Virus record (IMG/VR): IMGVR_UViG_2925891887_000001
Reading direction: 5' to 3' (one strand)
DNA length: 64,000 nucleotides
From: a virus
Lineage: Duplodnaviria > Heunggongvirae > Uroviricota > Caudoviricetes
Shown here: piece by piece, positions 31,846 to 48,902 of the stretch
Layout: every line of letters starts with the position of its first letter
How positions within the stretch are numbered: position 1 is the first letter of the stretch
The notes under the pieces: generated by a model
Database searches by the model: none
The model's input: the letters and a program-made list of their open reading frames with translations, nothing else
Told to the model about the DNA's origin: nothing
Translations under genes and position numbers: made by a program

Positions 31846-33090
31846 ACCAGTATTAGTCACGTAAACATTGACCGAAAATGATTTAACTTCTGTGTTGAAG
31901 TTGTCAGTCATTACCGCGAGGTAGGCATTCTTGGTATCTCTGAATTGCTTCAGGATGATTTGAACGTTATCGGTGCAAACAAACGAGGTAGCCAGATTGC
32001 CTCCTTTCTCTGAAAAATCCTTCAAGAAGGTGCAGTCAACTTTGCCATCATTAGCGGTGAAGACGGCATCATCACCCTGCCAGGTAAATGTTGCGTTAAC
32101 GCCTTTATCAATGGATTTAGCAATAAGTCGCTGAGTGTCAGATTTGGCATTTTGCTGTTTTGAAGGCGAACGGAACGTACCTTTTGCTTTCATTGCAGCA
32201 ACGTTTTCGCAGCCCGTTTCGTCATCTTTATCGCAAGCAGCTTGGTAAAGCTCTGATGCTTTCCGATAATCCTGTTTGACGCCCAATCCCTTAAGATACA
32301 TGTAACCAAGGTGGTTCATGGCATAATCATTTCCTAAGCTGATTGCTTGTTCTAAAAGACTTCTGGCCTTCGAATAGTCTTTTTTTATACCTTCTCCATG
32401 CATCAACTTGTATCCAAGCGCGCTCATGGCGTTATTATTTCCTAATTCAGCTGCTTTCAAGTACCACTTAATTGCCTCTTTATTGTTGCGCTTAACAGCA
32501 ACACCATCGTCGTACATAGAGCCTAGCCCATACATTCCTGCGGCATTTCCACTATCCGCAGCCTTTTTATAAGATTTAAATGCTTTCTTGTAATCTTTCG
32601 GAACTCCCTTACCGTATTGATATAAATATCCCATATAGGCAAGCGAAGGTATATCACCAGCTTCTACTGCTAGTTTGTGATATTTTAAAGCAGCTTCTGG
32701 GTCCTCCTTTCCAGTCCAACCTCGTTCGTATATAACGGCAAGATTATGGTAAGCACTGCCGTTGCGAGCATTTCCTGCTAGTTTGTAGTACTCAACGGCC
32801 TTATTTAGATCTTTATCTACTCCCTTCCCAATTGTGTACATAACCCCAAGCGCATAATATGCTACTTTATCTCCCTTTTCTGCGGCGAGATCGATCCACT
32901 TCTTGGCCTCTACTAAATCCTCATCAAAGCCATTAGCCCCATCCAAATAATTTGTCCCTAACGCACTTTGTGCTGTGGTATCTCCTGCGGTGGCGGCGTC
33001 GATCAGCGTTTGTTTATTATCTGCGTTAACGTATCCAGGGCCGAAAAGCAAAGCTAATGCCAGCAACGATGAAGGTTTTATGAGTTTCAT
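31837..33090 (-). CDS. secreted Sel1-like repeat (TPR-like) protein
   Basis: Signal peptide then multiple about 36-aa repeats of Sel1 type (A..YYKLAA..G...A...LG.MY..G.GV..D); only large minus-strand gene in the replication block. Confidence 0.7.
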   Translation of the reverse strand: MKLIKPSSLLALALLFGPGYVNADNKQTLIDAATAGDTTAQSALGTNYLDGANGFDEDLVEAKKWIDLAAEKGDKVAYYALGVMYTIGKGVDKDLNKAVEYYKLAGNARNGSAYHNLAVIYERGWTGKEDPEAALKYHKLAVEAGDIPSLAYMGYLYQYGKGVPKDYKKAFKSYKKAADSGNAAGMYGLGSMYDDGVAVKRNNKEAIKWYLKAAELGNNNAMSALGYKLMHGEGIKKDYSKARSLLEQAISLGNDYAMNHLGYMYLKGLGVKQDYRKASELYQAACDKDDETGCENVAAMKAKGTFRSPSKQQNAKSDTQRLIAKSIDKGVNATFTWQGDDAVFTANDGKVDCTFLKDFSEKGGNLATSFVCTDNVQIILKQFRDTKNAYLAVMTDNFNTEVKSFSVNVYVTNTGSN

Positions 33091-35177: not shown

Positions 35178-36496
35178 AAAAGTTGATCGCACTTAAGCAT
35201 AAGCTGGACGAAATGAAAGCTATAGGAACCAATGCAAAAAAAGAGGCATTGGCCAACATGGATGACTTTGAACAAAGCATGGTTTCATTGATGCTCAACC
35301 CTTTCATCCGTTTTGGGGTAAAGAAATACAAAGTGGCAGAGCCGCTTAGTGAGTCCATCCCAAGTGACGTAAAAGCCATTGATGTACTGAATAAGCTGGC
35401 CTCTCGCGAGCTAACGGGGAACGCAGCAATAGCAGCTGTTGAGTCTATCGTGGCGTCAATGTGCGCCGATGGGCAGGACGTGTTCCGTCGTTTCCTCTTA
35501 AAAGACCCGAAAGCAGGTGTTGGGATTAGCCTATGCAACAAGGTTTTTGAAAATCCCATTCCGAAATTCGAGGTGCAGCTGGCGTCACCGTATAAAGAAA
35601 AAGGCGACAAATACCCCTTCAAGCCAAATCCTAAAGCAAAATGGCCGATGATTGGCAGTCTTAAGCTCGATGGTTTGCGAGTAATTTGCGAGGTTATTGT
35701 TGACGAGGAAGAGGTTAACTTCCTTTCTCGTACTGGTAATCCAATCACGTCTCTCGATCACCTAAAGCCAGCAATGCTCGAATTAGGCAAACTTTCAGGC
35801 CACAAACACATCTTCTTCGATGGTGAAGGAACAGCCGGTTCATTTAACCAGTCCGTATCTGCATTGCGCAAAAAGAACGTGCAGGCAATTGGCGCTATTT
35901 ATCATGTTTTCGACTTCTTCCTACCGGAATGGCGAGCACAGGCTAAATCCAAAGAGTATGCAAAGACAGGTATGAAGCTGAAAGAGCGCCTGGCTATTCT
36001 CGTGGCGTTGTTCAAAAACGATCGCAGTGAAGGCTACACACAAGACATTCACCTGCATCCGTTCTATATCATCCATAGCCACGAAGACTTCATCGAACGC
36101 TTCATGAAACGCCTGGACGATAATGAAGAAGGGGAGATGGGCAAAGATCCGAACTCTGTTTACGAGTTTAAACGTACCCGCAGCTGGTGGAAGTTAAAAG
36201 ACGAAGATTCAGAAGATGGTGAAATTATCGATTTTGAGCCGGGCGATCCGGACTCTGGTTTTGCCAACACGCTTGGAAAAATTGTTATTCGTCTTGAAAA
36301 CGGCGTCATCGTTCGTGCGAGCGGTATTAAGCATAAATATCTGGACGAGATCTGGAACAACAAAGAGAAGTACCGTGGTCGTATTGTTGAGGTTCATTGT
36401 CACGAGAAAACACCGGATGGCAGCTTACGCCACCCCCGACTGAAATGGCCGCGTTGCTTACGCGATACAGAAGATCGAATCGGAGATAAAGAATGA
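35174..36496 (+). CDS. ATP-dependent DNA ligase
   Basis: Adenylation motif I KxDG (SLKLDGLRV) and ligase-size ORF. Confidence 0.8.
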   Translation: MKKLIALKHKLDEMKAIGTNAKKEALANMDDFEQSMVSLMLNPFIRFGVKKYKVAEPLSESIPSDVKAIDVLNKLASRELTGNAAIAAVESIVASMCADGQDVFRRFLLKDPKAGVGISLCNKVFENPIPKFEVQLASPYKEKGDKYPFKPNPKAKWPMIGSLKLDGLRVICEVIVDEEEVNFLSRTGNPITSLDHLKPAMLELGKLSGHKHIFFDGEGTAGSFNQSVSALRKKNVQAIGAIYHVFDFFLPEWRAQAKSKEYAKTGMKLKERLAILVALFKNDRSEGYTQDIHLHPFYIIHSHEDFIERFMKRLDDNEEGEMGKDPNSVYEFKRTRSWWKLKDEDSEDGEIIDFEPGDPDSGFANTLGKIVIRLENGVIVRASGIKHKYLDEIWNNKEKYRGRIVEVHCHEKTPDGSLRHPRLKWPRCLRDTEDRIGDKE

Positions 36497-36672
36497 TGCT
36501 CGGCTGGATGATTGCATTTTTAGCAGTTGGTTTTTTCATAGGTATTGTGGTGATGTCCAGTTGCATCAATGACTACATTAAAAGCGGTGTTATAGAAAGA
36601 CGCGGTCGTATTTATCGCATTGTAGAAATAACCAACACCCTGAAGGAGATTAAGGATGATCGTATTAAGTAA
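36493..36672 (+). CDS. small membrane protein (59 aa)
   Basis: Not in the ORF track (below 60 aa); ATG overlaps ligase stop; one TM helix; paralogous to 36868..37020. Confidence 0.4.
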   Translation: MMLGWMIAFLAVGFFIGIVVMSSCINDYIKSGVIERRGRIYRIVEITNTLKEIKDDRIK

Positions 36673-36871
36673 ACGGGAGAAGGAAACGCTTCATGAAATC
36701 AGTAAGTGGCCGGAGTTCCCTGAGTACTGGAAGCCTAAAACGCGAGCTAAGTTAGAGCGTTTAGGGTTGGTTGCAAACGTTTCTGAAACGTGGTGTTCGG
36801 CCAACTACCAGTTAACTGATAAAGGGAAAGTATTGCTACAGCAATTAGTAGAATCAGGAGTGTTAAAATGA
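36656..36871 (+). CDS. hypothetical small protein
   Basis: 71-aa ORF with AAGGAG RBS. Confidence 0.5.
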   Translation: MIVLSKREKETLHEISKWPEFPEYWKPKTRAKLERLGLVANVSETWCSANYQLTDKGKVLLQQLVESGVLK

Positions 36872-37020
36872 TTCCATACATCTCATTAGCTTTTATGGGT
36901 GGCTTCCTTATCGGCTTCGGCATCTGTCGTGATTTAGTTAAGCAGGAACTTAAAACCAAAACACTGTGCATCGGAAAGCGTGTGTATCGGGTAGTTCATG
37001 AAACAAAGGTGAAAAAATGA
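36868..37020 (+). CDS. small membrane protein (50 aa), paralogue of 36493..36672
   Basis: ATG overlapping upstream stop; TM helix followed by a shared basic motif (RVYRVVHETK versus RIYRIVEITN). Confidence 0.4.
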   Translation: MIPYISLAFMGGFLIGFGICRDLVKQELKTKTLCIGKRVYRVVHETKVKK

Positions 37021-37307
37021 GCAATTTAACTTCTTGGGAATGGTGGTTGGCCACCTATTTCTTAGCGGCCGGAGTCGCATTCGCCTTTTACGTAGGTCAG
37101 TTAGTCGTAAAACTGTTGCTGATTAAATTTGCTAGTCATAAACGTATCGATGATGGTCTGTGGCGTCTTGGCGCCCTGGTGGAAACTCGCTACGGGCAAC
37201 TTAAGGAGAACGAAACCATTACTATCCAAGCGAAACGATTCACTGCCACCATTACAAGAACACCTAGTCGTAGAGTGGCCTTGATCAAAAAAGTCACAAC
37301 CGAATAA
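37017..37307 (+). CDS. small membrane protein
   Basis: 96-aa ORF, N-terminal TM helix, ATGA start/stop overlap. Confidence 0.5.
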   Translation: MSNLTSWEWWLATYFLAAGVAFAFYVGQLVVKLLLIKFASHKRIDDGLWRLGALVETRYGQLKENETITIQAKRFTATITRTPSRRVALIKKVTTE

Positions 37308-37316
37308 AAACATATT

Positions 37317-37338
37317 GATAAGTATTTACTTACTTATC
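37317..37338. promoter_or_regulatory. perfect inverted repeat GATAAGTA-N6-TACTTATC, member of the recurrent GTAAGTA motif family
   Basis: Read directly from the sequence; related palindromes recur in many intergenic regions. Confidence 0.5.
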
Positions 37339-38085
37339 TTTTGTGTATAAGATGACTTTGTTTTCGTTGAGACGCGACTGTTTGAACTTAAATACAAGTG
37401 CAAACGAAGAAGTCTATCTGGCAGTAGCCTAATAAGCCAAACACCAGCGAGGTCAGTTTCCAGCCTCGTTACCGAAATGGGACACACTGAGCGAGTGTGA
37501 TTGCAGAACGCAGGAGGGAACATTCATGTTCCCTCCGATGAAGTAACAGAATGGGCGGTTGGTATATTTTCAACTCCATATGACTCCCGGATTCTTAGCC
37601 ACTGACCGCCCATCCTGTTACGTCATTTTGTTCAATTATGTCGTTTATACTGGGTTAAAAAGCGGCGACGTAGCCCGGCTGGTATGGTTAGCCAGCACAC
37701 AACGTTGAGGCCATTACATTTTTATCAATTCTAAGGTTCTATTCACAGAGATACCGGCGAGCGTTGATATGTAACATGTTGGGCAAACATTCAATCGGAG
37801 TAGTGGCCTCAACGTTGTGAAGACGGGATTGTTGTGTAGGTTTAACCACTGTTGCCATTGGTGCCTGTTTTCACAACAAATGATTCCATACATCACATTG
37901 TATAAATTACAAAGTAGGTGCTGTCCTCAGAAACATCATCTACTTAAAGATTTTGCCTTCTACTATTGAGCGAAGTCGAAAGCGTCTGGCACTAACGAAA
38001 AGTGCAAGTAGCGGTGCGTTTCCTGGCAGAAACTAAACCGTCGCGATTGGCACTGTTGAGTAATAAATACTGGCAGTGCTGAATT

Positions 38086-38160
38086 GATGGTGTAGCTCAG
38101 CGGTAGAGCAGTTGGCTGTTAACCAACTGGTCGGTGGTTCGAATCCACCCACCATCGCCA
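38086..38160 (+). tRNA. tRNA-Asn (anticodon GTT)
   Basis: Cloverleaf read by eye: acceptor GATGGTG/CACCATC, anticodon loop CTGTTAA, T-loop GGTTCGAATCC, encoded CCA. Confidence 0.8.
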
Positions 38161-38165
38161 ATTTA

Positions 38166-38252
38166 GGGGAGTTAGTCCGTAGAGGTAGCGGTGTAGACTG
38201 TAAATCTACTGTCATGGCGACTCGGGTGGTTCGACTCCATCACTCCCCACCA
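38166..38252 (+). tRNA. tRNA-Tyr (anticodon GTA), long variable arm
   Basis: Acceptor GGGGAGT/ACTCCCC, anticodon loop CTGTAAA, T-loop GGTTCGACTCC, encoded CCA. Confidence 0.75.
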
Positions 38253-38256
38253 AATT

Positions 38257-38332
38257 GCCGGTTTAGCTCAGTTGGTAGAGCAGTCGCTTTGTAAGCGAAT
38301 GGCCAGCGGTTCAAGTCCGTTAACCGGCACCA
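38257..38332 (+). tRNA. tRNA-Thr (anticodon TGT)
   Basis: Acceptor GCCGGTT/AACCGGC, D-arm AGCTCAGTTGGTAGAGC, anticodon loop TTTGTAA, T-loop GGTTCAAGTCC, encoded CCA. Confidence 0.75.
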
Positions 38333-38652
38333 ACACAACAGGTAAGAGCATTGGGCGAATCGGCGATACTGACCCACAAGGCCGTAAATCGATAGAGTCA
38401 GACCAGTGCTCTTACCGTTGTGAGGAAGTGCAGCTCTTTGAAGCAACCAGAAGATAAGCATCTGGCTTCACAACACAACGATAATATCATTACGGTTAAT
38501 CGTCGTTCATGTGCACAATGACTGGTCGAAAGGTAGTGATCTTACCGTTGTGATGAATGCACAGGCTGATGTGCCGCAACTACAGTAGTGCGCGCTTTGC
38601 GGGGCTTGCTACAACCCTGTGTCGGAGTTCAGCACCGACCATCACAATAGCT

Positions 38653-38739
38653 GGAGAGTAGGGAGCATGGTGCTCAAGCGGTCTTGAAAACCGTCCCATT
38701 GTGCAAACGATGATGGTTCGATTCCATTACTCTCCGCCA
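38653..38739 (+). tRNA. tRNA-Ser (anticodon TGA), long variable arm
   Basis: Acceptor GGAGAGT/ACTCTCC, anticodon loop CTTGAAA, T-loop GGTTCGATTCC, encoded CCA. Confidence 0.7.
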
Positions 38740-38894
38740 GACACAGCGTTGAGCGGTTTGGCCTTTTAATCAACTCGATTAAGACTCCGCTAACATAAAC
38801 CAGACCGCTCAACGCTGTGATAGATAATTACGGCAGACGTTCTTAACCATAGCTTGCTAACATCCTAGCAACACTTTTTTCAGCGCAAAATTCA

Positions 38895-38918
38895 AAGGGG
38901 CTTCGGCCCCTTTTTTGT
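38895..38918 (+). terminator. Rho-independent terminator closing the tRNA cluster
   Basis: AAAGGGGC-TTCG-GCCCC hairpin followed by TTTTTTGTT. Confidence 0.75.
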
Positions 38919-38931
38919 TGAACAGTGCAAT

Positions 38932-40194
38932 TTACTTTGCATAGTCGCCCAATTTTAATATTTCGCGCTTATATTCATTAACCATGCTACTGGATTCAGT
39001 ATAAATTCGATTTAAAAGATTATCGTTATCTTTATTTTCATTTATCTTAATTAGTGCTAATTTATATTCATAGTCATCAAATGCCACAATTAAATGGTGG
39101 CCTGGGATTATATCTTCGTCACTCTTAAAGTATATATCTTCAAGTATGTAATCTAGTTGATTAGATTTTCTTTTCTCGATGTAATCTTCAGCCATAGCTA
39201 TTACATCATTCCTGTCATTTAACCTGTTTTTTTCGGAAGGCACATCTTCGTAATGTTGCACGATTGAACAACCAATAAGGCGTGGGATGTAAACGTCAAA
39301 ATGAGTAACTCTATCATTCGCGGTTTTAAGTAGTTCCTCAAAGTAGTTTCTTACATGTAAAGGCAACTTCTCAAAGTAATCATTAATTATAGGAGAACAA
39401 GGAGTTTTATAATTCATAAGAACCGACGGTACGAGCTTTGGGTGTCGAAACATCCAGTCCCTTTTAACGTCCGATGGAACATAATAACTTTTAATGATAT
39501 TATCAAAATAATTTATCATTCGAGATTTGAATATTTTGTTGAATCTAAGGTTTATGAATGTATCCAGATAAGGCATATTTGAATAAGCATCATCAAAAAA
39601 TATTTCATCATTGAAAAAATCATATTTATTCAATAAACAACACAGTTTTTCCGAATTAATATGTTCACAATAATCGATTTTTAATCCAAAGATAGCAATG
39701 ATCAACTTCATCTGAGGTGGGATTTTAAAAATTAATTGTGACACATACGCTCTTTTTTCCTTGAGACATTCCCCATCAATATAAAATGAACCATCCACAT
39801 ACTCAAATATATTAATAATATGCTTCACATACTGTATTACCTCATGCTGTCTTACCAATGGATAATATAGTCTATGTAACTCATCGCTGTTTAAATTAAT
39901 TTTGTGTTTATCGATAATTTGTTTTGCAAGAAGACATAACTCATCATGTTGATTTAATAAGGAATCAAACCATTGTTTAAATGCACTCTTTCGCATTTCG
40001 AACAATGATTCAGTTGTTAATTGAAGGGCTGAAAAAGCTGCTTTTGCACTTTTTCTCGCTTCGTAGGCATTCCATGCTGTTGCTATAAAAGCAAATGCTG
40101 TAGCCAATGTTCCAACAGTTTGACCATTTAAAACAACCCAATCCCAAAAAATGACGGTGAGCAGTAGTATAATAATGAAAATTAAAAAAGGCAT
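38932..40194 (-). CDS. AT-rich membrane-anchored protein of unknown function (cargo gene)
   Basis: 420-aa ORF, two N-terminal hydrophobic helices, strongly AT-rich, adjacent to tRNAs and an integrase. Confidence 0.55.
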   Translation of the reverse strand: MPFLIFIIILLLTVIFWDWVVLNGQTVGTLATAFAFIATAWNAYEARKSAKAAFSALQLTTESLFEMRKSAFKQWFDSLLNQHDELCLLAKQIIDKHKINLNSDELHRLYYPLVRQHEVIQYVKHIINIFEYVDGSFYIDGECLKEKRAYVSQLIFKIPPQMKLIIAIFGLKIDYCEHINSEKLCCLLNKYDFFNDEIFFDDAYSNMPYLDTFINLRFNKIFKSRMINYFDNIIKSYYVPSDVKRDWMFRHPKLVPSVLMNYKTPCSPIINDYFEKLPLHVRNYFEELLKTANDRVTHFDVYIPRLIGCSIVQHYEDVPSEKNRLNDRNDVIAMAEDYIEKRKSNQLDYILEDIYFKSDEDIIPGHHLIVAFDDYEYKLALIKINENKDNDNLLNRIYTESSSMVNEYKREILKLGDYAK

Positions 40195-40368
40195 GTATGT
40201 ATTTCACTCTACTAACTATAAAATATTAGGCTAATGTTAACCAAACAATGCCTTAATTAATAGATTGATCGAGGCTTTAATAGCTTTATAATGCAGACTT
40301 TAAAGATAAGTATGCACATACCTATCTTCTTTGTAAGTAAAGTTGCATATCAATTCTATGAGGTAACA

Positions 40369-40614
40369 ATGACGATCACTATCTACGGACGAGATAACTG
40401 CTCATACTGCAAACGTGCGGTCGAGCTGGCGAAGCAACTAAAGGGACATGGCTACGGTGATTATGAGTACATCGACATCACCACTGCCGGTATCGACAAG
40501 GAAAAACTAAGTGAAATTGTTGGTAAACCGGTAGAGACTATCCCCCAAGTGCTGATCGATGGCCAACCGATTGGCGGATACACAGAACTGGCTGCATACG
40601 TCAGCACCCTCTGA
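40369..40614 (+). CDS. glutaredoxin-like protein (NrdH/NrdC-like, CxxC)
   Basis: MTITIYGRDNCSYCKRA... with GAGGT RBS; about 81 aa; followed by a terminator. Confidence 0.7.
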   Translation: MTITIYGRDNCSYCKRAVELAKQLKGHGYGDYEYIDITTAGIDKEKLSEIVGKPVETIPQVLIDGQPIGGYTELAAYVSTL

Positions 40615-40632
40615 TTTTAACGGCTCACAGGA
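40611..40632 (+). terminator. Rho-independent terminator
   Basis: CGGCTC-ACAG-GAGCCG hairpin followed by TTTTTA. Confidence 0.65.
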
Positions 40633-40824
40633 GCCGTTTTTATTCCCACCAAACTCACTCCCGTTTCCCTTAAAATTCAAAAAACAACGTCAAAATGATT
40701 CCATACCTACTATGTATGGAATCATTACTGAAAATGAGTTACTTTTACTCTTGATCCTATAAGAATCTATGCCTAATATACTGTTTACTTATACAGTAAA
40801 TCGGCGTAACTCGGTGATTGTCAT

Positions 40825-41928
40825 ATGAAAAATAGCTTTGACAGAGCACGCGCTGCGGAGAACACCTCAAAAGAGGCGATTGAGTATCTCGAAAGAGCAT
40901 CTCAAATGCAGGCCGTTATGATCTCGCAGGTCAGCAATGACATGAGATTCTCGGACGCATTCATGTTATTCACTCGCTTATCTCTGCTGATAACAAGACG
41001 TCGGCCAGAGATCGCTGTTCATTGTATTTTGATACATGTTTTGCCGCACATTGCCGATGTAAAAGTAAGTGACATTAATAGGTTCATGGTGAACCAACTG
41101 GTCAACCCACTAATACTGGATGGCAAAATTGTTATGGGCCGCCGCGTTTTCTCTCTGATGAAGCAGTTCCTTAGCTGGTGCGCCTTCCAGGGGATGATAG
41201 ACGTGTCACCGTTAAACGATATGTCACTAAACAAAGTTGCCGGTGGCGCAAAGCCCACACCTCGCGAGCGGAAGCTGACCGACGCAGAGGTATGGGTGTT
41301 CTGGAATATATGGGACTACTTCAATGTGTGCGCTGGTACAAAATGGGCGGCCAGGCTGTGTCTTGTATCCGCAAGACGACCTGACGAAGTACTGCGGGCT
41401 AAAAAAAGTGAGTTCAATCTTAAGCGTGGGGTTTGGAATCAAGGCAAGAGGAACAAATCTGCCCGTGAGCATTCGCTGCCTTTAAGCACATTAATGCGCA
41501 CATGTATTGAAGAGTTGTTCGAATACGGTAAAGGCAGCCAGTGGCTCGTGCCTTCGAATAAAAAAATCGGGAAAGACCTTCCTATGTCTAAAGTGGCAAT
41601 AGCCCAGGCATTACGTCGTATCCTGGAACGACCAGAACTGATGGAGCTTGAGCCATTTACACCCCGAGACTTGCGCCGTACTGCGCGTAGTTACTTCCCA
41701 GCATTAGGCATAAGCCAGGAGGTCTCACGCAAAATCATGAACCACAGTCTTGAGGGGATAGATCGAGTCTACGACCGGCACGATTATATGGACGAGATGC
41801 GAGACGCCTTAGAAAGTTTCTCGACGTACATCGCATCAATCGTAGAGCAACCGGATTTAGACGAAATTGACCACAAATTCAAGGGAGATCGTCTATCAAC
41901 AGAGCTTATTCGTGTAAATTTTTCATAG
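40825..41928 (+). CDS. tyrosine recombinase/integrase
   Basis: C-terminal catalytic signature (RDLRRTARSY ... HS..G.DRVYDRHDY); 367 aa. Confidence 0.75.
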   Translation: MKNSFDRARAAENTSKEAIEYLERASQMQAVMISQVSNDMRFSDAFMLFTRLSLLITRRRPEIAVHCILIHVLPHIADVKVSDINRFMVNQLVNPLILDGKIVMGRRVFSLMKQFLSWCAFQGMIDVSPLNDMSLNKVAGGAKPTPRERKLTDAEVWVFWNIWDYFNVCAGTKWAARLCLVSARRPDEVLRAKKSEFNLKRGVWNQGKRNKSAREHSLPLSTLMRTCIEELFEYGKGSQWLVPSNKKIGKDLPMSKVAIAQALRRILERPELMELEPFTPRDLRRTARSYFPALGISQEVSRKIMNHSLEGIDRVYDRHDYMDEMRDALESFSTYIASIVEQPDLDEIDHKFKGDRLSTELIRVNFS

Positions 41929-42309
41929 AGACTTTATGGCCTCAACAACCTTTTGTGATGCGCCTTTCTCTTTACCGAATCGCTCGTTATATGCAGCAAG
42001 AACCTGTTTTTCGTCCTCGTTAAGAGGAGCGGTGCCTTCTTTGTATAAAAATGCTGCGAGTTCAGGTTGGCGTTCTTCCAGCACCATCATCATAAGACGA
42101 CTTGGCTCAATACCCAGCGCCAGCGCCAACGGACGAACCTTATCGATAGGCAAAGGAATTTTGCCACTTTTAATTAAAGAAAGGTTGTTGGCATTTTTAT
42201 AACCAATAAGTCTGGCTATTTGGGCCTGACTCATAGGTGAGGATTCAATCAGCCCTGCGATAAAAGCGGCATAGCGACTTTCTATAAATTCAATCTTGTT
42301 GTCAGACAT
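41923..42309 (-). CDS. HTH (XRE-family) transcriptional regulator
   Basis: Helix-turn-helix segment QAQIARLIGYKNANNLSLIKSGK; divergent from 42560..42772 across an AT-rich intergenic region. Confidence 0.65.
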   Translation of the reverse strand: MSDNKIEFIESRYAAFIAGLIESSPMSQAQIARLIGYKNANNLSLIKSGKIPLPIDKVRPLALALGIEPSRLMMMVLEERQPELAAFLYKEGTAPLNEDEKQVLAAYNERFGKEKGASQKVVEAIKSL

Positions 42310-42559
42310 TGTTACAACCTTTGCGCGTTCAATTCTCTCTGGTAAGTGCTTACCGATATTACATCAAAGGTTAGGGTTGTAAAGCTATTATCATTTTTTC
42401 GATAGGCACTTAAAAGACCGGTTAAAGGCCATTGCACGGAGAAAAATTAGCCCAAAACAGGTAAGAAAATTAACTTGCATATGATATGAATGTATTCAGT
42501 ATTGATATAAATTTTAGTAGTATTCCTTACCATAGTATAAGTTAGAATGGATTGATTGA

Positions 42560-42772
42560 ATGAACACCACTATTTCCAGCCTAATCGCTCTTGAGATCGG
42601 ACACGTACAGAAATTAGCTGATGAGTGTGTAGCTGACATCCTCACCGATCTACCGAATGAGCAGATTCAGGTTGGTGTGAATGACACAACTGGCTTTATA
42701 TTCGAACTTAACAACAAACGCTTCACGCTTCTCAATATCGGCTCCGGGTCTTTAGCCGTCAGAATCTGTTAA
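42560..42772 (+). CDS. hypothetical small protein
   Basis: 70-aa ORF divergent from the HTH regulator gene. Confidence 0.4.
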   Translation: MNTTISSLIALEIGHVQKLADECVADILTDLPNEQIQVGVNDTTGFIFELNNKRFTLLNIGSGSLAVRIC

Positions 42773-42870
42773 CCCCTCTTCTCCCTGCGCGAATGGCTTA
42801 GTTCCCTGTTCGCGCAGTGCTACATTAAACACACTAGTAAATAATTTGTTTTCATAACAAAGGATTAGCC

Positions 42871-44979
42871 ATGTCTAAAAAACGTTCCATCAAAGAGGTT
42901 CAGGACTTCCGTGACAGTGTAAAACGAGTAGTCGCTCTCCTTTCAGGTAAAAACATCCCTGTTGCAGAACGAGGGGACGACGCTTATGTACGCTATAACG
43001 ATGATGGAGAGCCAATTCTCGTAAACATCCCATCAATCCCGGATAACGCAACACCGGCATTGATGAATGCTGTGCGCGGATTTCTCGATCATGAGGTTGC
43101 TCACATTTTGTTTACCGATATTCGTGTGTCCAACAAAATGAGAGAAAAAGGACGCGTTCCTTCCTGGTCGCTATGGAATGCCTTAGAAGACGTGTTCATC
43201 GAGCGAAAAATGGGTCAGGTCTTTAACGGAACAAGACGTAATCTGATGGCAACTCAGCGCCTTATAATCGAAAAAGTCTTTAAACCAAAGGCTTCAGAGG
43301 CTATTGCTTATTGTGGCAAAGATCAGCGCGCGCTTTTTCTAAACTTCTTTCTCTGTCCGGTTGTAAGAGCCTGGGATGGCCAAGCACCGTTCGTAGATTT
43401 CATGGATGAACATTGGCCTGTCATTGAGAAACCAATTTCATTATTAAAAGAACATGGTATCGATGTGGCCGTGCGTAACATGTCTTGCACCGAGGATTGT
43501 GTAAAGGTGGCTGCGACCATAGCTAAGATCCTCAAAGACACTGAAAGTGAAAGCAAAGGTAAGGAGTCAGCTCCGGGAAAAACTTCCGATCCTTCAGACG
43601 CTGACCAGACGGATGCCTCTGGAGAAAACAATGAAGACAACGAAGATCATGAGACTCCCTCAGTGTTAGATAATCACAAATCTATCAAATCAGAATCACA
43701 TAGTAAGTACAAACATGATAATAACAACAGTGATGATTCAGATAATTCTGAATCATCAGAAACAATATTCGATGATACAGAAAATGATAAAGAGGTATCA
43801 GATTCTGATGCTTCTGATAACGCGGCGTCAGAATCATTAACCGCTGACCACGAAAAAAGAAAAACGACAGAAGACGGCTCTTCAGATATCCCAACTCCGT
43901 CAAAAATGAGTCTGGAAGAGGCTTTAGAGGAGCTGGATAGCATAGAAGATGAAGTCGGAGGCATGACAGAAGATGCTCTATCCGAAACGATTAAAAGCGA
44001 GTTAACAGAAAGCTCGAAAAGCGAATACAGGCCATACAATCGCTCATACGACTTCATCGGCTCGATTGATCAGGCAGAAGCCCATATCAAACGGCTTATT
44101 AAAACATTCTCCGATATTGATTTGGGAGGATATCCAATCAGCCGCTATCGCATCGTTCCTGAAGGCAACCAGCTCTTCGACAAATATATTGAAAAGCATC
44201 TTTCGTCAGGTGTTTCGTCGACGCTGGCAAAAGACCTGGAGCGAGCAATAGCAAGCAGAAACAGAGTTCAGTTTATACCGGGCCAGCGTCGGGGGCGCAT
44301 TCATGGTTCTAGTATCTACAGATTAGCAATGAATGATGCTCGCGTGTTTCGTAAAAAAGAAGAATCTAAAGCCGTTAACGCCTGTGTTCAACAAGTGATT
44401 GATTTATCAGGTTCAATGAGTGGTATAACGATTAAACTGGCTCTTGCAAGTGCATATACCATCGCCGATGCCCTTGATCGAATAAATGTTCCCAACATTA
44501 TCACTGGCTTCACTACATTTGGTAGTCATATGGCGGCAGGAGAACTTAAGGCTGTCAAGTATGAGTTCTCTCGCTTTGAATCTTTAATGCTACCTATCAT
44601 CAAAAATTGGAATGAAAAGGTAAATTCTCGCGAAGTTCGCTCACGTATGGGGTGCGTAGGCTACACATTCCCACTTCTTAATAACGTGGATGGTGAAAGC
44701 ATAGCCAGCCTTGCATCGTTATTTTCCGGTCGCATGGAGGACAGGAAGATCATGCTTGTTCTGAGTGATGGCGCGCCGTGGGCTGTTGGGAGAGGTTTTG
44801 ACGCTCATTTGCGTTCAGTTGCGAAGCAAATTGAAACGCAGACTGATATTGATTTGATGGCAATTGGCATCATGACTGACGCACCGGAGAGATTTTACTC
44901 AAATCATGCCCTGGTAACGAGCGTTGATAGTCTTGGTTCATCTGTAGTTACTGAACTATCTCGTATCATTTTAAAGTGA
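42871..44979 (+). CDS. von Willebrand factor A (vWA) domain protein with acidic Asp/Glu/Ser-rich linker (CobT-like)
   Basis: MIDAS motif DLSGSMSG in the C-terminal part; long acidic low-complexity segment; paired with the downstream AAA+ gene. Confidence 0.65.
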   Translation: MSKKRSIKEVQDFRDSVKRVVALLSGKNIPVAERGDDAYVRYNDDGEPILVNIPSIPDNATPALMNAVRGFLDHEVAHILFTDIRVSNKMREKGRVPSWSLWNALEDVFIERKMGQVFNGTRRNLMATQRLIIEKVFKPKASEAIAYCGKDQRALFLNFFLCPVVRAWDGQAPFVDFMDEHWPVIEKPISLLKEHGIDVAVRNMSCTEDCVKVAATIAKILKDTESESKGKESAPGKTSDPSDADQTDASGENNEDNEDHETPSVLDNHKSIKSESHSKYKHDNNNSDDSDNSESSETIFDDTENDKEVSDSDASDNAASESLTADHEKRKTTEDGSSDIPTPSKMSLEEALEELDSIEDEVGGMTEDALSETIKSELTESSKSEYRPYNRSYDFIGSIDQAEAHIKRLIKTFSDIDLGGYPISRYRIVPEGNQLFDKYIEKHLSSGVSSTLAKDLERAIASRNRVQFIPGQRRGRIHGSSIYRLAMNDARVFRKKEESKAVNACVQQVIDLSGSMSGITIKLALASAYTIADALDRINVPNIITGFTTFGSHMAAGELKAVKYEFSRFESLMLPIIKNWNEKVNSREVRSRMGCVGYTFPLLNNVDGESIASLASLFSGRMEDRKIMLVLSDGAPWAVGRGFDAHLRSVAKQIETQTDIDLMAIGIMTDAPERFYSNHALVTSVDSLGSSVVTELSRIILK

Positions 44980-46490: not shown

Positions 46491-48854
46491 ATGAAGGCAC
46501 TGATGGTTCGAACTGACTTCTCACTTGGGGAGTCGGCTCTAAAAGCAGAAAACGCGGTGAAGATTGCCAGAGAAGCTGGCTACACCGCTGTAATTTCAGC
46601 AGATAGCATGAATATTGCGAGCGTTATTCCACTACAACGTGCCGCTGGTGACGACATGGCGGTTATTTGTGGTGTGAAACTAAACATTGTTGATGATCCC
46701 ACATACGAGCACCGGGCTAAACTTGCTAAAGAATCTATGAGATGTATGGAATCATTAGAGCGAGGACGTAACTACTCGTTTACCGCTCTAATTAAAAATG
46801 AGAAAGGATATCGCGACATCTGCGAACTAATGACGGCGGCCAACACACGAGAACAGTTCTACTTTGTACCGCGTCTCTCGCTCGAACAGTTGGTTTCTAC
46901 ATATGCCAAAGGCAACATCATCCTGCTTACTTCCGACATCGGTAGCGTGTTCCAACGCAACGATTTTGCAAAAATCATAAGCACACTGATTACAGCGGGT
47001 GGAAAAGACAACTTCTATAGTGTGGTTTATCCGCACCCTACCCCATTCTACGACCAGATTAACGTCCGGGCGATGAAAGTCGCCAGCGCATTGAAAATAG
47101 AGCCAGTGGCGTTCTATCCCGCTTATTACGAATCGATCGACGATGCAGACATTAAAGACATTGCGCACATGGTTACGAACAACATCAAAATCGACCAGCC
47201 GCATCGTCTGCGTATCCCCCACCAGCGAGATAACGCCGTCAATGGTCGCCGCCATCTCCTTGAGGCGCTTAAAGCCTTCTCCGTTCGCATGGATGTGCCG
47301 GTAACAGCTGCAATGGCCTCAACAACGCAGGATACCATTATCGATGCCTGCACATGGCGCTGGCATGAATTGCCGCCAGCACTGCCAAAGATGGCAGACG
47401 ACGAGCCTGCAACGCTGATGAAACTGGCTGTTGCAGGGCTGCGTAAACGTCTTACCACAAAAGAGTTTGGCTACACACCACCTGCTTCTGAGAACAGGGT
47501 TTATGTTGAGCGGCTAAAGTACGAAATGGACACGCTGACTCGCCTGGGATTCTGTGGTTACTTCCTGATGGTGCGCGATCTGATGAATCATAGTCGTGAA
47601 ACTGGCATTCCCGTTGGGCCTGGTCGTGGTTCCTCTGCCGGTTCTCTGGTGGCGTGGTGCATAGGCATAACCAACGTCGACCCAATCCGTCACGGTCTTC
47701 TGTTTGAGCGTTTCATCAACCCTGAGCGTCTCGACTTGCCGGATGCGGACTTGGACTTCAGCCAGGCACGTCGCCATGAGGTGATCGAGTATCTGAATGA
47801 ACGCTACGGCGAAGATTACGTTGCAGGCATTCCGAACTTCACCTACCTGGGCGCAGCCTCTGCACTACGTGATACCGCTCGTATTTATGGTGTGGAGTCC
47901 GCAGATATGGCGGTATCAAAAGAGCTGAAGAACGTCGAGGATGATAGCCTTCCATTGGAGGAGCTGCGCGAACAACTGGCAAGTCTCGACAAATACGCAA
48001 CAAAATATCCTGATGCATTCAATGCAGCCTGCAAGTTACAAAGCCTTATGCGTGGCTTTGGTAGACATGCGGCAGGGATGATCGTAGCAGGTGTTCCTCT
48101 GACAGAACGTACACCGGTTGAACGCCGTGGTGACGCGCGTTGTATCGCATTTGACAAGCGTTACTGCGAGGCTATGGGCCTAATTAAGCTGGACGTGCTT
48201 GGCCTGGCAACTCTCGATTTGCTCGATAGTGCAAAACGCTACATAAAAGAGAACACAGGTGAAGATATCAATCTTGATGCCATTTCTCTTGAAGATCGCA
48301 AGGTGCTGGATGGTTTTGCTGCAGGGTATACACAGGGCGTATTCCAGCTTGAATCAGGCCCAATGCGCAAGCTGCTTAAAGATTTAGGTGGTGGAATTGA
48401 GCCAATGAGCTTTAAAACGGTCGTCGCTACAACTGCGCTCTTCCGACCTGGCCCGATTCAATCCGGCATGTTGGACGATTATGTGTCCGTGGCCAAAGGC
48501 TTCATGGCCCCACATTCCTTACACCCAATGCTGGACGACATCTCTCGCGACACAAACGGAGTTCTGATTTATCAGGAACAGATCATGGCTGCTACGCGAA
48601 TCTTGGCGGGGTTCTCAATGGCGGAAGCAGACTCGGTCAGGAAAGCGATCGGGAAAAAAGATATGGAGAAAATGAAATCCATTGGCGGCGACTTCATTAA
48701 GCGAGCGGAGGAAGGCTGGGTGACAGTGTCACTGGATGATGGTTCTACGAGAAAAATCCATAAAGCAGCACGCCTACTTTGTGCTGATGGTGAGCGTCGC
48801 ACTTATGCCGAAGCAATGGCAATAAATGCCGACATAACGAGCTTCGATATTTGA
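46491..48854 (+). CDS. DNA polymerase III alpha-type (DnaE-like) replicative polymerase, N-terminal part
   Basis: Polymerase core block GRGSSAGSLVAWCIGITNVDPIRHGLLFERFINPER; ORF ends in non-conserved sequence just before the finger-domain motif. Confidence 0.75.
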   Translation: MKALMVRTDFSLGESALKAENAVKIAREAGYTAVISADSMNIASVIPLQRAAGDDMAVICGVKLNIVDDPTYEHRAKLAKESMRCMESLERGRNYSFTALIKNEKGYRDICELMTAANTREQFYFVPRLSLEQLVSTYAKGNIILLTSDIGSVFQRNDFAKIISTLITAGGKDNFYSVVYPHPTPFYDQINVRAMKVASALKIEPVAFYPAYYESIDDADIKDIAHMVTNNIKIDQPHRLRIPHQRDNAVNGRRHLLEALKAFSVRMDVPVTAAMASTTQDTIIDACTWRWHELPPALPKMADDEPATLMKLAVAGLRKRLTTKEFGYTPPASENRVYVERLKYEMDTLTRLGFCGYFLMVRDLMNHSRETGIPVGPGRGSSAGSLVAWCIGITNVDPIRHGLLFERFINPERLDLPDADLDFSQARRHEVIEYLNERYGEDYVAGIPNFTYLGAASALRDTARIYGVESADMAVSKELKNVEDDSLPLEELREQLASLDKYATKYPDAFNAACKLQSLMRGFGRHAAGMIVAGVPLTERTPVERRGDARCIAFDKRYCEAMGLIKLDVLGLATLDLLDSAKRYIKENTGEDINLDAISLEDRKVLDGFAAGYTQGVFQLESGPMRKLLKDLGGGIEPMSFKTVVATTALFRPGPIQSGMLDDYVSVAKGFMAPHSLHPMLDDISRDTNGVLIYQEQIMAATRILAGFSMAEADSVRKAIGKKDMEKMKSIGGDFIKRAEEGWVTVSLDDGSTRKIHKAARLLCADGERRTYAEAMAINADITSFDI

Positions 48855-48902
48855 GAATTAATTTATAAGATAAGAAAACAATTTGTTTAGTGAGTCTTAG
48901 AA

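What the first reader, a model, noticed from the sequence alone, without database searches (positions are those of the whole stretch)
38932..42309. tRNA-adjacent cargo island: AT-rich membrane protein, glutaredoxin, tyrosine recombinase and HTH regulator
Immediately after the tRNA cluster and its terminator lies a minus-strand, strongly AT-rich 420-aa gene with two N-terminal transmembrane helices and no recognisable motif, followed by a CxxC glutaredoxin, an integrase-type tyrosine recombinase and a divergently transcribed HTH regulator. The recombinase could be the dimer-resolution or integration function of the phage-plasmid, or could mark a nested mobile island that brought the membrane protein (an abortive-infection-like candidate).
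Basis: inference. Interest (0 to 1): 0.65.

Follow-up and report, generated by a model that had tools for sequence, protein, structure and literature searches.

The report
AbiC-like defence gene in phage-plasmid hotspot
The four genes are not one mobile island: only the AT-rich membrane protein is imported cargo, a very divergent and so far unannotated relative of the AbiC/AbiP anti-phage proteins sitting in a swap-prone slot of an SSU5/pHCM2-type phage-plasmid, while the glutaredoxin, recombinase and repressor belong to the plasmid's conserved backbone.

Summary
All four genes exist at the stated coordinates. The window is an E. coli SSU5/pHCM2-type phage-plasmid. The 420-aa gene (38932-40194, minus strand, 31% GC against 46% for the window) has two N-terminal transmembrane helices and no direct Pfam, NCBIfam or PADLOC hit. 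It is nevertheless homologous over nearly its full length to putAbiC (PF16872) proteins: hhalign probability 99.7%, and 38 of 50 family members hit PF16872.

The gene fills a replaceable slot between the tRNA terminator and grx. Sister plasmids carry AbiG, a type I restriction-modification system, other genes or only gp49 there. It is present in 44 of the 247 complete E. coli genomes that carry this locus.

The glutaredoxin, tyrosine recombinase and HTH repressor are backbone genes. The recombinase occurs in 933 plasmids, including Y. pestis pMT1, and is never chromosomal in 5,426 complete E. coli genomes. No tRNA-derived att repeats flank the block, so the nested-island idea fails and the abortive-infection idea gains support by homology and position.

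Two unreported features lie upstream of the recombinase gene: a conserved LexA box, and a 13-7-13 palindrome whose outer edge is a recurrent boundary of cargo exchange. In pMT1 that boundary abuts the caf1 (F1 capsule) region.

Verdict: new member of a known kind; moderate interest.

The parts
38086..38739 (+). tRNA array (Asn-GTT, Tyr-GTA, Thr-TGT, Ser-TGA). It is backbone, but the tRNA complement varies among relatives (4, 3, 2 or 1 genes).
   Evidence: ARAGORN; Rfam
38894..38913 (.). Bidirectional intrinsic terminator (AAAGGGGC-TTCG-GCCCCTTTTTT). It ends the tRNA transcript on the + strand and the 420-aa gene on the - strand, and it forms the left edge of the replaceable slot.
   Evidence: homology with Cyrano and p4_0.2 stops at 38917
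38918..40357 (.). Slot A cassette: the replaceable segment holding the AbiC-like gene and its AT-rich upstream region. In Cyrano and p4_0.2 it is replaced by a gp49 gene; in pS2-S1K81-2 by AbiGi plus a partner; in a Salmonella plasmid by a type I R-M system.
   Evidence: blastn breakpoints; annotations; PADLOC AbiGi at 5.5e-47
38932..40194 (-). 420-aa AbiC/AbiP-family (putAbiC-like) membrane-anchored protein. Layout: transmembrane hairpin at residues 2-46, a conserved juxtamembrane motif ATAWNAYEARKSAKAA, then a roughly 370-aa mostly helical cytoplasmic domain.
   Evidence: (phrog_18168)
40195..40368 (.). AT-rich (28.7% GC) divergent promoter region. It holds a grx promoter-like site at 40265-40292 and a weak minus-strand -35/-10 candidate for the AbiC-like gene, read by eye.
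40369..40614 (+). GrxA-family glutaredoxin (CSYC), a backbone gene, with its terminator at 40619-40638.
   Evidence: conserved in relatives
40694..40726 (.). Palindrome of 13-7-13 bp, AATGATTCCATAC-CTACTAT-GTATGGAATCATT. It is a candidate core site of the adjacent recombinase (or a repressor operator) and marks the right edge of all cargo variability.
40779..40798 (.). LexA (SOS) box TACTGTTTACTTATACAGTA. It overlaps the putative integrase promoter (TTGATC 40751-40756, 17-nt spacer, TAATAT 40774-40779) and lies 27 nt upstream of the integrase ATG.
40825..41928 (+). Tyrosine recombinase (P4-like integrase family), a persistent backbone gene.
41923..42309 (-). 128-aa XRE-type HTH protein, homologue of Cyrano CYRAN_45 (putative lysogeny repressor). 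It is convergent with the integrase gene and overlaps it by 6 bp.
   Evidence: (PMC9928086)
37879..37891 (+). Single copy of the 13-mer AATGATTCCATAC, extended as AATGATTCCATACATCACAT, about 200 nt upstream of the tRNA array. Further perfect copies lie at 36867-36879 (+) and 46744-46756 (-).

Best explanation
The interval is the junction between an accessory-gene hot spot and the lysogeny/recombination module of an SSU5/pHCM2-type phage-plasmid.

The only imported gene is the 420-aa ORF. It is a single-gene, AT-rich cassette occupying 'slot A', between the tRNA-operon terminator and grx. It encodes a highly divergent member of the AbiC/AbiP (Pfam putAbiC) family.

Most likely mechanism, inferred by analogy: the protein is made from the resident plasmid prophage and anchored in the inner membrane by an N-terminal helical hairpin, with its large helical domain in the cytoplasm. 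When an unrelated phage infects, a phage product activates it. It then blocks phage development, either through nucleic-acid binding and loss of the early-to-late switch (as reported for AbiP) or through reduced capsid-protein output (as reported for AbiC). This would protect the lysogen population and the phage-plasmid.

Grx, the tyrosine recombinase and the HTH repressor are vertically inherited backbone genes. The recombinase is SOS-controlled through a conserved LexA box and probably acts on the adjacent 13-7-13 palindrome, for plasmid multimer resolution or recombination, not for chromosomal integration.

Shown here: homology, membrane topology, foreign composition, patchy distribution, and slot behaviour. 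Inferred: expression in the lysogen, anti-phage activity and its mechanism, and the recombinase's site.
For: Identity of the element. The best match is E. coli plasmid pTW10722_119 at 99.4%. Phage records Cyrano, CMS-2020a and PhiR41_1 match the flanks.

Homology to AbiC/AbiP.
- BLASTP to a Pantoea plasmid protein gives E=6e-18 over residues 28-331. That protein hits PF16872 at 45.4 bits, cutoff 22.
- 38 of 50 family members found by a profile search of 1.84 billion representatives hit PF16872; 7 hit PADLOC AbiC and 4 hit AbiP.
- hhalign between the SSU5-locus subfamily and putAbiC-bearing proteins gives probability 99.7%, E=5e-27, over 384 columns.
- Two transmembrane helices followed by a positively charged segment, matching AbiC's reported two-helix topology (PMC13064643).
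- A confident model (pLDDT 90.9) has no structural relative. The same is reported for AbiC and AbiP (PMC13064643).

Cargo behaviour.
- GC is 31% against 46%, and every homologue examined is 10-17 points below its surroundings.
- The gene is in 44 of 5,426 complete E. coli genomes, against 247 for the integrase locus, and in 137 plasmid records against 933.
- An allele at the same position is only 67.6% identical in DNA while its flanks are 95-98% identical.
- Divergent alleles occupy the same position in Klebsiella and Enterobacter phage-plasmids.

The slot holds defence genes in sister plasmids: AbiGi (5.5e-47) with a partner, and a type I R-M system.

Minus-strand genes at this locus are strongly expressed in a Cyrano lysogen: CYRAN_43 at 723 times background (PMC9928086).

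Backbone status of integrase, HTH and Grx; PMC7969092.
Against: - The window protein itself reaches no threshold in Pfam, NCBIfam or PADLOC.
- Several polar positions conserved in the wider family are replaced in this subfamily. The consensus FFEH is FFND here, and RNDVL is PPQMKL. Function may therefore have diverged.
- No enterobacterial member has been tested, to my knowledge. A lactococcal AbiC-like protein at 38% identity to AbiC gave no resistance in one screen (PMC11381338).
- The mechanism of AbiC/AbiP is itself unknown.
- AT-rich genes in E. coli are often silenced by H-NS (established knowledge), and no strong promoter consensus lies upstream.
- Chromosomal homologues sit as lone genes between housekeeping genes, not in recognisable defence islands.
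Confidence: 0.65

Rival explanations
1. The 420-aa protein is a lysogenic-conversion membrane protein that acts without killing the cell. It might be a superinfection-exclusion factor that blocks DNA entry, or a modifier of a membrane process, and so only resemble AbiC/AbiP in fold.
For: It is membrane-anchored. It lies next to the immunity and recombination module, as many exclusion genes do. The subfamily has lost polar residues conserved in the wider putAbiC family. For AbiC/AbiP themselves neither mechanism nor cell death has been demonstrated (PMC13064643).
Against: The positive-inside rule places the roughly 370-aa domain in the cytoplasm rather than facing incoming DNA at the periplasmic side. 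Known exclusion proteins are mostly much smaller (established knowledge). Homology to AbiC/AbiP runs along nearly the whole length.
Confidence: 0.2
2. The gene is a neutral or silenced xenogeneic passenger with no current function. It would be AT-rich DNA that landed in a permissive intergenic slot and is kept quiet by H-NS.
For: Very low GC. No strong promoter match. Patchy distribution.
Against: The ORF is intact and full-length in 43 complete E. coli genomes and in a cluster of 301 member sequences. Alleles as divergent as 32-55% identity keep their full length and an invariant juxtamembrane motif at the same locus in several genera. That pattern argues for purifying selection on a working protein.
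Confidence: 0.1
3. One reading: a nested mobile island carrying the membrane protein, grx, integrase and HTH genes integrated next to the tRNA genes and is mobilised by its own tyrosine recombinase.
For: A tRNA array adjoins an integrase and an AT-rich gene. There is one imperfect 19-nt repeat (16 of 19 matching) at 38334-38352 and 42453-42471.
Against: The integrase and HTH genes are present at the same place in 933 plasmids regardless of cargo, and Grx in most relatives. Their GC is backbone-like. Variability breaks into separate slots, at 38917/40358 and at 40592/40676-40694, rather than at the ends of the block. No repeat includes a tRNA 3' end. The locus is never chromosomal in complete E. 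coli genomes.
Confidence: 0.03
4. The 420-aa protein performs a housekeeping phage function, such as lysis, membrane anchoring of replication, or morphogenesis.
For: It matches a PHROG family (phrog_18168) made of phage-derived sequences.
Against: It is absent from functional relatives that produce virions or are deposited as phage genomes, such as Cyrano and PhiR41_1. It is absent from about 80% of E. coli plasmids of this type. Its composition is foreign.
Confidence: 0.02

Closest known systems
Lactococcal AbiC (Prf) and AbiP, the 'AbiC/P group'; Pfam PF16872 putAbiC; PADLOC AbiC and AbiP models
   Same: It is a single-gene system with low GC, carried on a mobile element. It has an N-terminal membrane anchor (two helices, as in AbiC) followed by a helical domain with no solved structural relative. 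Family-level sequence homology is strong (hhalign 99.7%; 38 of 50 members hit PF16872).
   Different: The window protein falls below every curated threshold. It is longer (420 aa; AbiC is about 344 aa from memory, and the PADLOC AbiP profile is 223 positions). Several family-conserved polar residues are substituted. It is carried by an enterobacterial phage-plasmid rather than a lactococcal plasmid. No phenotype is known.
Defence hot spots of temperate phages and satellites, such as the P2 and P4 hot spots; prophage 'morons'
   Same: It is a fixed position between conserved genes where unrelated defence genes replace one another (AbiC-like, AbiG, type I R-M, toxin-antitoxin). The cargo is AT-rich, has its own promoter and terminator, and is transcribed against the surrounding genes.
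   Different: The host element is a plasmid prophage of the SSU5/pHCM2/pMT1 family. I found no description of this hot spot in the papers searched. In other members the same region carries virulence loci (caf1 in pMT1).
P1 Cre/loxP
   Same: Both are phage-plasmids with a tyrosine recombinase gene lying next to a site made of 13-bp inverted arms around an asymmetric spacer (33 bp here, 34 bp for loxP). Neither is integrated in the chromosome.
   Different: There is no detectable sequence relationship to Cre. The spacer is 7 bp rather than 8. The gene carries a LexA box. Extra single 13-mers are scattered over 10 kb, which is more like P1 C1 operators. Recombination at the site has not been tested.
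Integron platform (intI, attI, cassettes), in which intI is LexA-regulated
   Same: An SOS box lies in the recombinase promoter, a recombination-type site lies just upstream of the gene, and variable cargo starts exactly at that site and extends away from the gene.
   Different: The recombinase is a P4-like integrase, not IntI. No attC-like sites bound the individual cargo genes. Much of the variation has breakpoints elsewhere, at 38917, 40358 and 40592.

Membership tests
AbiC/AbiP group (Pfam PF16872 putAbiC) | The protein itself matches the PF16872 profile above the gathering score (22 bits), or matches the PADLOC AbiC or AbiP models | tested here: not met
   No Pfam hit at E<=0.01 and no PADLOC hit at E<=1. 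The nearest subfamily member, P0007, reaches 18 bits.
AbiC/AbiP group (Pfam PF16872 putAbiC) | Demonstrable homology to bona fide family members by transitive or profile-profile comparison | tested here: met
   BLASTP E=6e-18 to a PF16872-positive Pantoea protein. 38 of 50 homologues hit PF16872, 7 hit PADLOC AbiC and 4 hit AbiP. hhalign probability 99.7% over 384 columns.
AbiC/AbiP group (Pfam PF16872 putAbiC) | N-terminal transmembrane anchor (two helices in AbiC, one in AbiP) followed by a soluble helical domain | tested here: met
   Hydropathy gives helices at 2-22 and about 28-46, followed by R47, K48 and K51. The AlphaFold2 model has pLDDT 90.9. Family description from PMC13064643.
AbiC/AbiP group (Pfam PF16872 putAbiC) | Stand-alone single-gene system on a mobile element | tested here: met
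   There is no co-oriented partner ORF between the terminator and grx. Plasmid and chromosomal homologues are also lone genes.
AbiC/AbiP group (Pfam PF16872 putAbiC) | Confers phage resistance with an abortive phenotype; nucleic-acid binding (AbiP) | not testable with these tools
   Needs phage challenge and biochemistry.
tRNA-targeting integrative genomic island | Direct att repeats, one of them the 3' end of a tRNA gene, bracketing the island | tested here: not met
   The repeat finder on 37500-43000 gave only a 15-nt match of the tRNA-Asn anticodon region inside the integrase ORF, and a 16/19 match that starts after tRNA-Thr.
tRNA-targeting integrative genomic island | Integrase and cargo are present or absent together, and share a foreign composition | tested here: not met
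   The integrase is in 933 plasmids and the cargo family in 137. Integrase GC is 47.6% and cargo GC 31.4%.
Tyrosine recombinase (PF00589) | Profile match above cutoff, and the catalytic residues R...HxxR...H/W...Y | tested here: inconclusive
   PF00589 at 39.4 bits (cutoff 27.1) and phrog_1 integrase at 1e-46. Read by eye from the sequence: SARRPDE, then RDLRRT (Arg in place of the first His), then NHSLEGIDRVY with the candidate nucleophile Tyr. No alignment to a solved structure was obtained.
GrxA-type glutaredoxin | Equivalog profile above cutoff, and a CxxC active site | tested here: met
   NF008401 at 107.8 bits (cutoff 84); CSYC at residues 11-14.
Cre/loxP-like resolution system | Recombinase gene next to a site with inverted arms of about 13 bp around a 6-8 bp asymmetric spacer | tested here: met
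   Site at 40694-40726, 13-7-13 bp. The arms are invariant across genera while the spacer varies.
Cre/loxP-like resolution system | The recombinase binds the site and recombines two copies of it | not testable with these tools
   The evidence is only indirect: homology breakpoints fall at the outer edge of the arm in several high-identity comparisons.
SOS (LexA) regulon member | CTGT-N8-ACAG box overlapping the promoter | tested here: met
   TACTGTTTACTTATACAGTA at 40779-40798 is the only perfect TACTGT-N8-ACAGT in the 64-kb window. It is conserved at the same place in every relative fetched, including pMT1. LexA binding was not tested.

The most novel reading that the evidence does not exclude
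The SOS-controlled tyrosine recombinase and its adjacent 13-7-13 palindrome form a cargo-exchange platform of the SSU5/pHCM2/pMT1 backbone, lox-like or integron-like in its logic. Foreign DNA would be recombined in at the palindrome. This would explain two observations: unrelated cargo (toxin-antitoxin genes, morons, a chaperone-usher operon in PhiR41_1, the caf1-IS-ymt region of Y. pestis pMT1) ends exactly at the outer edge of the invariant left arm, and the spacer differs or is flipped between lineages. Under this reading the AbiC-like gene is one of many payloads of a dedicated acquisition site, and the F1 capsule locus of the plague bacillus sits at that same site.
Probability: 0.2. Interest if true: 0.75.

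Novelty: new member of a known kind. Interest (0 to 1): 0.42.

Why it matters
- It assigns a family to a 'hypothetical protein' found in about 0.8% of complete E. coli genomes, which current defence-annotation profiles (Pfam, PADLOC) miss.
- It places an AbiC/AbiP relative in a genetically tractable host. The mechanism of that family has been unresolved since the early 1990s, so an E. coli member on an inducible phage-plasmid would make it testable with standard coliphage panels.
- It defines two replaceable slots in a widespread plasmid-prophage backbone found in clinical Klebsiella, E. coli, Salmonella and Y. pestis pMT1.
- It points to a conserved LexA box and a lox-like palindrome that may explain how that backbone acquires defence and virulence cargo.

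Tried and rejected
- Direct profile scans of the 420-aa protein (Pfam, NCBIfam, PADLOC) gave nothing. Only phrog_18168, of unknown function, matched.
- tblastn against 50,697 phage records found no match.
- The word-indexed protein search found only 7 close relatives, then 17 with a profile query.
- The first AlphaFold2 run, with 6 sequences, was unusable at pLDDT 60.6. The 50-sequence run was good at 90.9.
- The att-repeat search for a tRNA-targeted island was negative.
- A 14-mer shared by the grx/AbiC-like promoter region and the HTH promoter region (40278-40291 and 42377-42390) is within chance expectation. I did not build on it.
With the narrower alignment it returned only 3 chromosomal loci, whose neighbours are housekeeping genes. 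That gives no defence-island support.
- A look-up of P0076 found no contig.
- Literature searches for 'putAbiC' and 'PF16872' returned nothing.
- A cassette model for slot B was rejected: no second copy of the 13-mer bounds the slot-B cargo in pRM9975-1 or pS2-S1K81-2.


Full report
**What the window is.** The region 37500-43000 matches E. coli plasmids of about 110 kb, best pTW10722_119 at 99.4% over 100% of the query. It also matches phage records of SSU5-like phage-plasmids: Cyrano from E. coli LF82, CMS-2020a and PhiR41_1. Those phage records cover only 42-69% of the query, so part of the interval is variable. The surrounding genes fit the SSU5/pHCM2 family: ATP-dependent DNA ligase, CobT- and CobS-like proteins, DNA polymerase III alpha, primase and a DnaB-like helicase.

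**Observation check.**
- The four ORFs are at the stated coordinates. Four tRNAs (Asn, Tyr, Thr, Ser) lie at 38086-38739. A G+C-rich hairpin with T-runs on both strands lies at 38894-38913, 18 nt from the stop codon of the 420-aa gene.
- The 420-aa gene is 31.4% GC (GC3 28%) against 46.1% for the window. Grx (49.6%), the integrase (47.6%) and the HTH gene (43.7%) are backbone-like.
- Hydropathy and the structure model give two N-terminal transmembrane helices (residues 2-22 and about 28-46), followed by R47, K48 and K51. By the positive-inside rule the large C-terminal domain is cytoplasmic.
- Grx is an above-threshold GrxA equivalog with a CSYC active site. The integrase passes PF00589. The HTH protein is a weak XRE-type match.
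- One correction: the HTH gene is convergent with the integrase gene and overlaps it by 6 bp. It is divergent only from the downstream operon.

**What the membrane protein is.** Direct scans fail in Pfam, NCBIfam and PADLOC. Only phrog_18168, of unknown function, matches. A tblastn search of plasmids found homologues in 137 records. One of them is a Pantoea protein annotated 'putative phage abortive infection protein'.
- That Pantoea protein hits Pfam putAbiC (PF16872) at 45.4 bits (cutoff 22). It aligns to the window protein with BLASTP E=6e-18 over residues 28-331.
- A profile of the close family, searched against 1.84 billion representative proteins, found only 66 clusters, so the family is small.
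- Of 50 full-length members, 38 hit PF16872, 7 hit PADLOC AbiC and 4 hit PADLOC AbiP.
- hhalign between the SSU5-locus subfamily and four putAbiC-bearing proteins gives probability 99.7%, E=5e-27, over 384 columns.
- The putAbiC domain maps to residues of about 118-199. Y122, F193 and F194 are invariant across the family. The most conserved stretch within the subfamily is the juxtamembrane motif ATAWNAYEARKSAKAA.
- With the 50-sequence alignment AlphaFold2 gives pLDDT 90.9 and pTM 0.78. The model has a transmembrane hairpin, a helix of about 70 residues continuing from the second transmembrane helix, a helical domain and a small alpha/beta C-terminal part.
- No meaningful structural neighbour exists in PDB or BFVD.

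A 2026 review groups lactococcal AbiC (two transmembrane helices) and AbiP (one) as 'AbiC/P'. It likewise reports no function assignable from structure. AbiP binds RNA and ssDNA and blocks phage DNA replication and the early-to-late switch, while AbiC lowers capsid-protein production (PMC13064643). The window protein is therefore a remote member of this superfamily. It does not meet the curated thresholds, and it has replaced several family-conserved polar residues (FFEH to FFND, RNDVL to PPQMKL). Its function could have drifted.

**Cargo or backbone.**
- The integrase is found in 933 plasmid records, 926 of them full length. About 786 are at 80% amino-acid identity or more, in Klebsiella, Escherichia, Enterobacter, Yersinia (pMT1) and Salmonella. 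In the relatives inspected it is followed by the convergent HTH gene.
- Pfeifer et al. list tyrosine recombinases among the persistent genes of the SSU5 supergroup (PMC7969092).
- In Cyrano the HTH homologue CYRAN_45 is the putative lysogeny repressor (PMC9928086).
- Grx is present in the Klebsiella, Enterobacter and Salmonella relatives.
- By contrast the 420-aa gene occurs in 44 of 5,426 complete E. coli genomes, against 247 for the integrase locus.

*Slot A (38918-40357).* Pairwise blastn defines this slot, bounded by the tRNA terminator and the grx ribosome-binding site.
- It is replaced by a gp49 gene in Cyrano and p4_0.2.
- It is replaced by AbiGi (PADLOC 5.5e-47) plus a 403-aa partner in pS2-S1K81-2.
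- It is replaced by a 302-aa unrelated gene in pRM9975-1, and by a type I R-M system in a Salmonella plasmid.
- In plasmid p20170902CC-1 a 55%-identical allele sits in the same place: 67.6% DNA identity there, against 95-98% in the flanks.
- Alleles 32-36% identical occupy the same tRNA-adjacent, opposite-strand position in Klebsiella and Enterobacter phage-plasmids.

*Slot B (about 40592-40693, empty in the window).*
- It holds CYRAN_43 in Cyrano, which is expressed at 723 times background in the lysogen.
- It holds a YafO toxin pair in many relatives.
- It holds a chaperone-usher operon in PhiR41_1.
- It holds the caf1 operon, followed by IS elements and ymt, in Y. pestis pMT1.

No repeat of a tRNA 3' end brackets the block. 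The nested-island interpretation is therefore rejected. The abortive-infection candidate is supported by homology and by the company the slot keeps.

**The recombinase and its surroundings.** In 5,426 complete E. coli genomes all 281 occurrences of this locus are on plasmids and none is chromosomal. Stable chromosomal integration is therefore not its usual role.

Two conserved elements lie upstream of the integrase gene.
1. *A LexA box.* TACTGTTTACTTATACAGTA at 40779-40798 is a textbook SOS box and the only perfect TACTGT-N8-ACAGT in the 64-kb window. It overlaps a putative TTGATC-17-TAATAT promoter 27 nt before the ATG. It is conserved in all relatives fetched, including pMT1. Cyrano is induced by ciprofloxacin.
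2. *A palindrome.* AATGATTCCATAC-CTACTAT-GTATGGAATCATT lies at 40694-40726.
   - The arms are identical in E. coli, Enterobacter, Salmonella and Yersinia, and have one mismatch in Klebsiella.
   - The spacer varies: CTACTAT, CTATTAA, TCTTTAG, and in PhiR41_1 the exact reverse complement ATAGTAG.
   - In high-identity comparisons, homology with the window starts at 40692-40694 for PhiR41_1, pRM9975-1, pS2-S1K81-2 and the 2014C-3307 plasmid.
   - pMT1 and a Salmonella plasmid, 93% identical to the right, diverge at the first base of the palindrome.
   - A whole class of complete E. coli genome hits starts at query position 493-496, which is the same point.

An exchange inside a site whose arms are identical in all partners would produce exactly this apparent breakpoint at the outer edge of the arm. 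That favours a recombination site.

There is evidence the other way. Single copies of the 13-mer lie at 36867, 37879 and 46744 and are conserved in other genera. That distribution resembles scattered repressor operators, as for P1 C1. In addition, slot-B cargo is not bounded by a second copy of the 13-mer. I leave this open, at roughly even odds between recombination site and operator.

**Mechanism and confidence.**
- Shown: homology to AbiC/AbiP, membrane-hairpin topology, foreign composition, slot replacement by bona fide defence systems, and backbone status of the other three genes.
- Inferred: expression from the resident prophage, activation by an infecting phage, interference with phage gene expression or replication, SOS control of the integrase gene, and recombinase action at the palindrome.
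- Overall confidence in the main reading is 0.65. Homology alone I rate above 0.9.

**Novelty.** The protein family and the concept of prophage defence hot spots are known. New here are a divergent enterobacterial AbiC/P subfamily that current profiles miss, and the description of this particular hot spot with its flanking LexA box and palindrome. I rate it a new member of a known kind, of moderate interest.

Noticed in passing
window 36867-36879 (+), 37879-37891 (+), 40694-40706 (+), 40714-40726 (-), 46744-46756 (-): There are five perfect copies of the 13-mer AATGATTCCATAC. About 2 matches are expected even when 2 mismatches are allowed. Three copies extend to AATGATTCCATACATC[TA]CAT, and two overlap ATG codons of small ORFs beginning MIPYI. 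The copies are conserved at homologous positions in Klebsiella, Enterobacter, Salmonella and pMT1 relatives. They could be repressor operators (as for P1 C1) or recombinase sites; this is unresolved.
   Followed up: partly
window 40692-40694; L003, L022, L023, L024, L017 vs L018: Homology breakpoints between closely related plasmids pile up at the first base of the palindrome's left arm. The spacer differs between lineages and is exactly reverse-complemented in PhiR41_1. In PhiR41_1 the inserted chaperone-usher region also has a 13-mer copy on its far side (L009 18621).
   Followed up: partly
window 40779-40798: A conserved LexA box overlaps the putative integrase promoter. Because the integrase gene converges on and overlaps the repressor gene, SOS-induced transcription of the integrase gene could run antisense into the repressor gene. 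I found no mention of this in the papers searched.
   Followed up: partly
L017/L025 (Y. pestis pMT1 81-88 kb) and L003 (PhiR41_1): In pMT1 the caf1R-caf1M-caf1A-caf1 operon, followed by IS elements and the ymt phospholipase D gene, lies directly against the palindrome upstream of the same integrase. PhiR41_1 carries a PapD chaperone, an usher and an AraC-type regulator at the same spot, replacing window 35203-40693.
   Followed up: partly
window 37698-37819, 38334-38422, 38742-38819: There are three long hairpins with stems of about 20 bp that all open with CACA[A/G]C and close with G[T/C]TGTG. Their fold z-scores are -5.9, -5.8 and -10.3. One lies upstream of the tRNA array and two lie immediately 3' of tRNA-Thr and tRNA-Ser. 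They may be RNase III-type processing stems for the tRNA transcript. No Rfam family matches.
   Followed up: partly
window 26570-28276 (+): This is a second AT-rich (29.5% GC) cargo gene. It encodes a 568-aa KAP-family P-loop NTPase matching the PADLOC candidate system PDC-S49 (2.1e-21). The segment is absent from PhiR41_1, so it marks another variable slot.
   Followed up: partly
window 46491-50803: The DNA polymerase III alpha gene is split into a 787-aa ORF and a 389-aa ORF by a 244-aa HNH_3/NUMOD3 homing-endonuclease ORF at 48903-49637. Relatives have an uninterrupted gene of 1168-1172 aa. This may be an intron or a free-standing homing-endonuclease insertion.
   Followed up: partly
window 31837-33090 (-): A minus-strand 417-aa Sel1-repeat protein with a signal-peptide-like N-terminus lies in a segment missing from PhiR41_1 (31.8-33.8 kb). 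This is another accessory slot next to the primase gene.
   Followed up: no
L013 (GCA_041522175.1, contig JBGOMU010000001.1, 548-570 kb of 617,681 bp): An identical copy of the locus lies on a 617-kb contig. It is either an integrated or cointegrated phage-plasmid, or an assembly chimera. The Grx-palindrome-integrase junction is intact there, so any join is elsewhere.
   Followed up: no
window 38162-38638; L001, L006, L007: The tRNA complement varies between relatives: Asn-Tyr-Thr-Ser here, Asn-Thr-Ser in Cyrano, Asn-Ser in a Klebsiella plasmid, and Asn only in an Enterobacter plasmid. The 320-bp Thr-Ser spacer is absent from Cyrano.
   Followed up: no
L001 4835-5389 (-) and L005 5473-6027 (-): A 184-aa gene with no family match occupies slot B in Cyrano (CYRAN_43, the most highly expressed moron in the LF82 lysogen). 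A gene of the same length lies between tRNA-Ser and the AbiC-like allele in p20170902CC-1. If the two are homologous, the moron moves between slots. Their identity was not checked.
   Followed up: no
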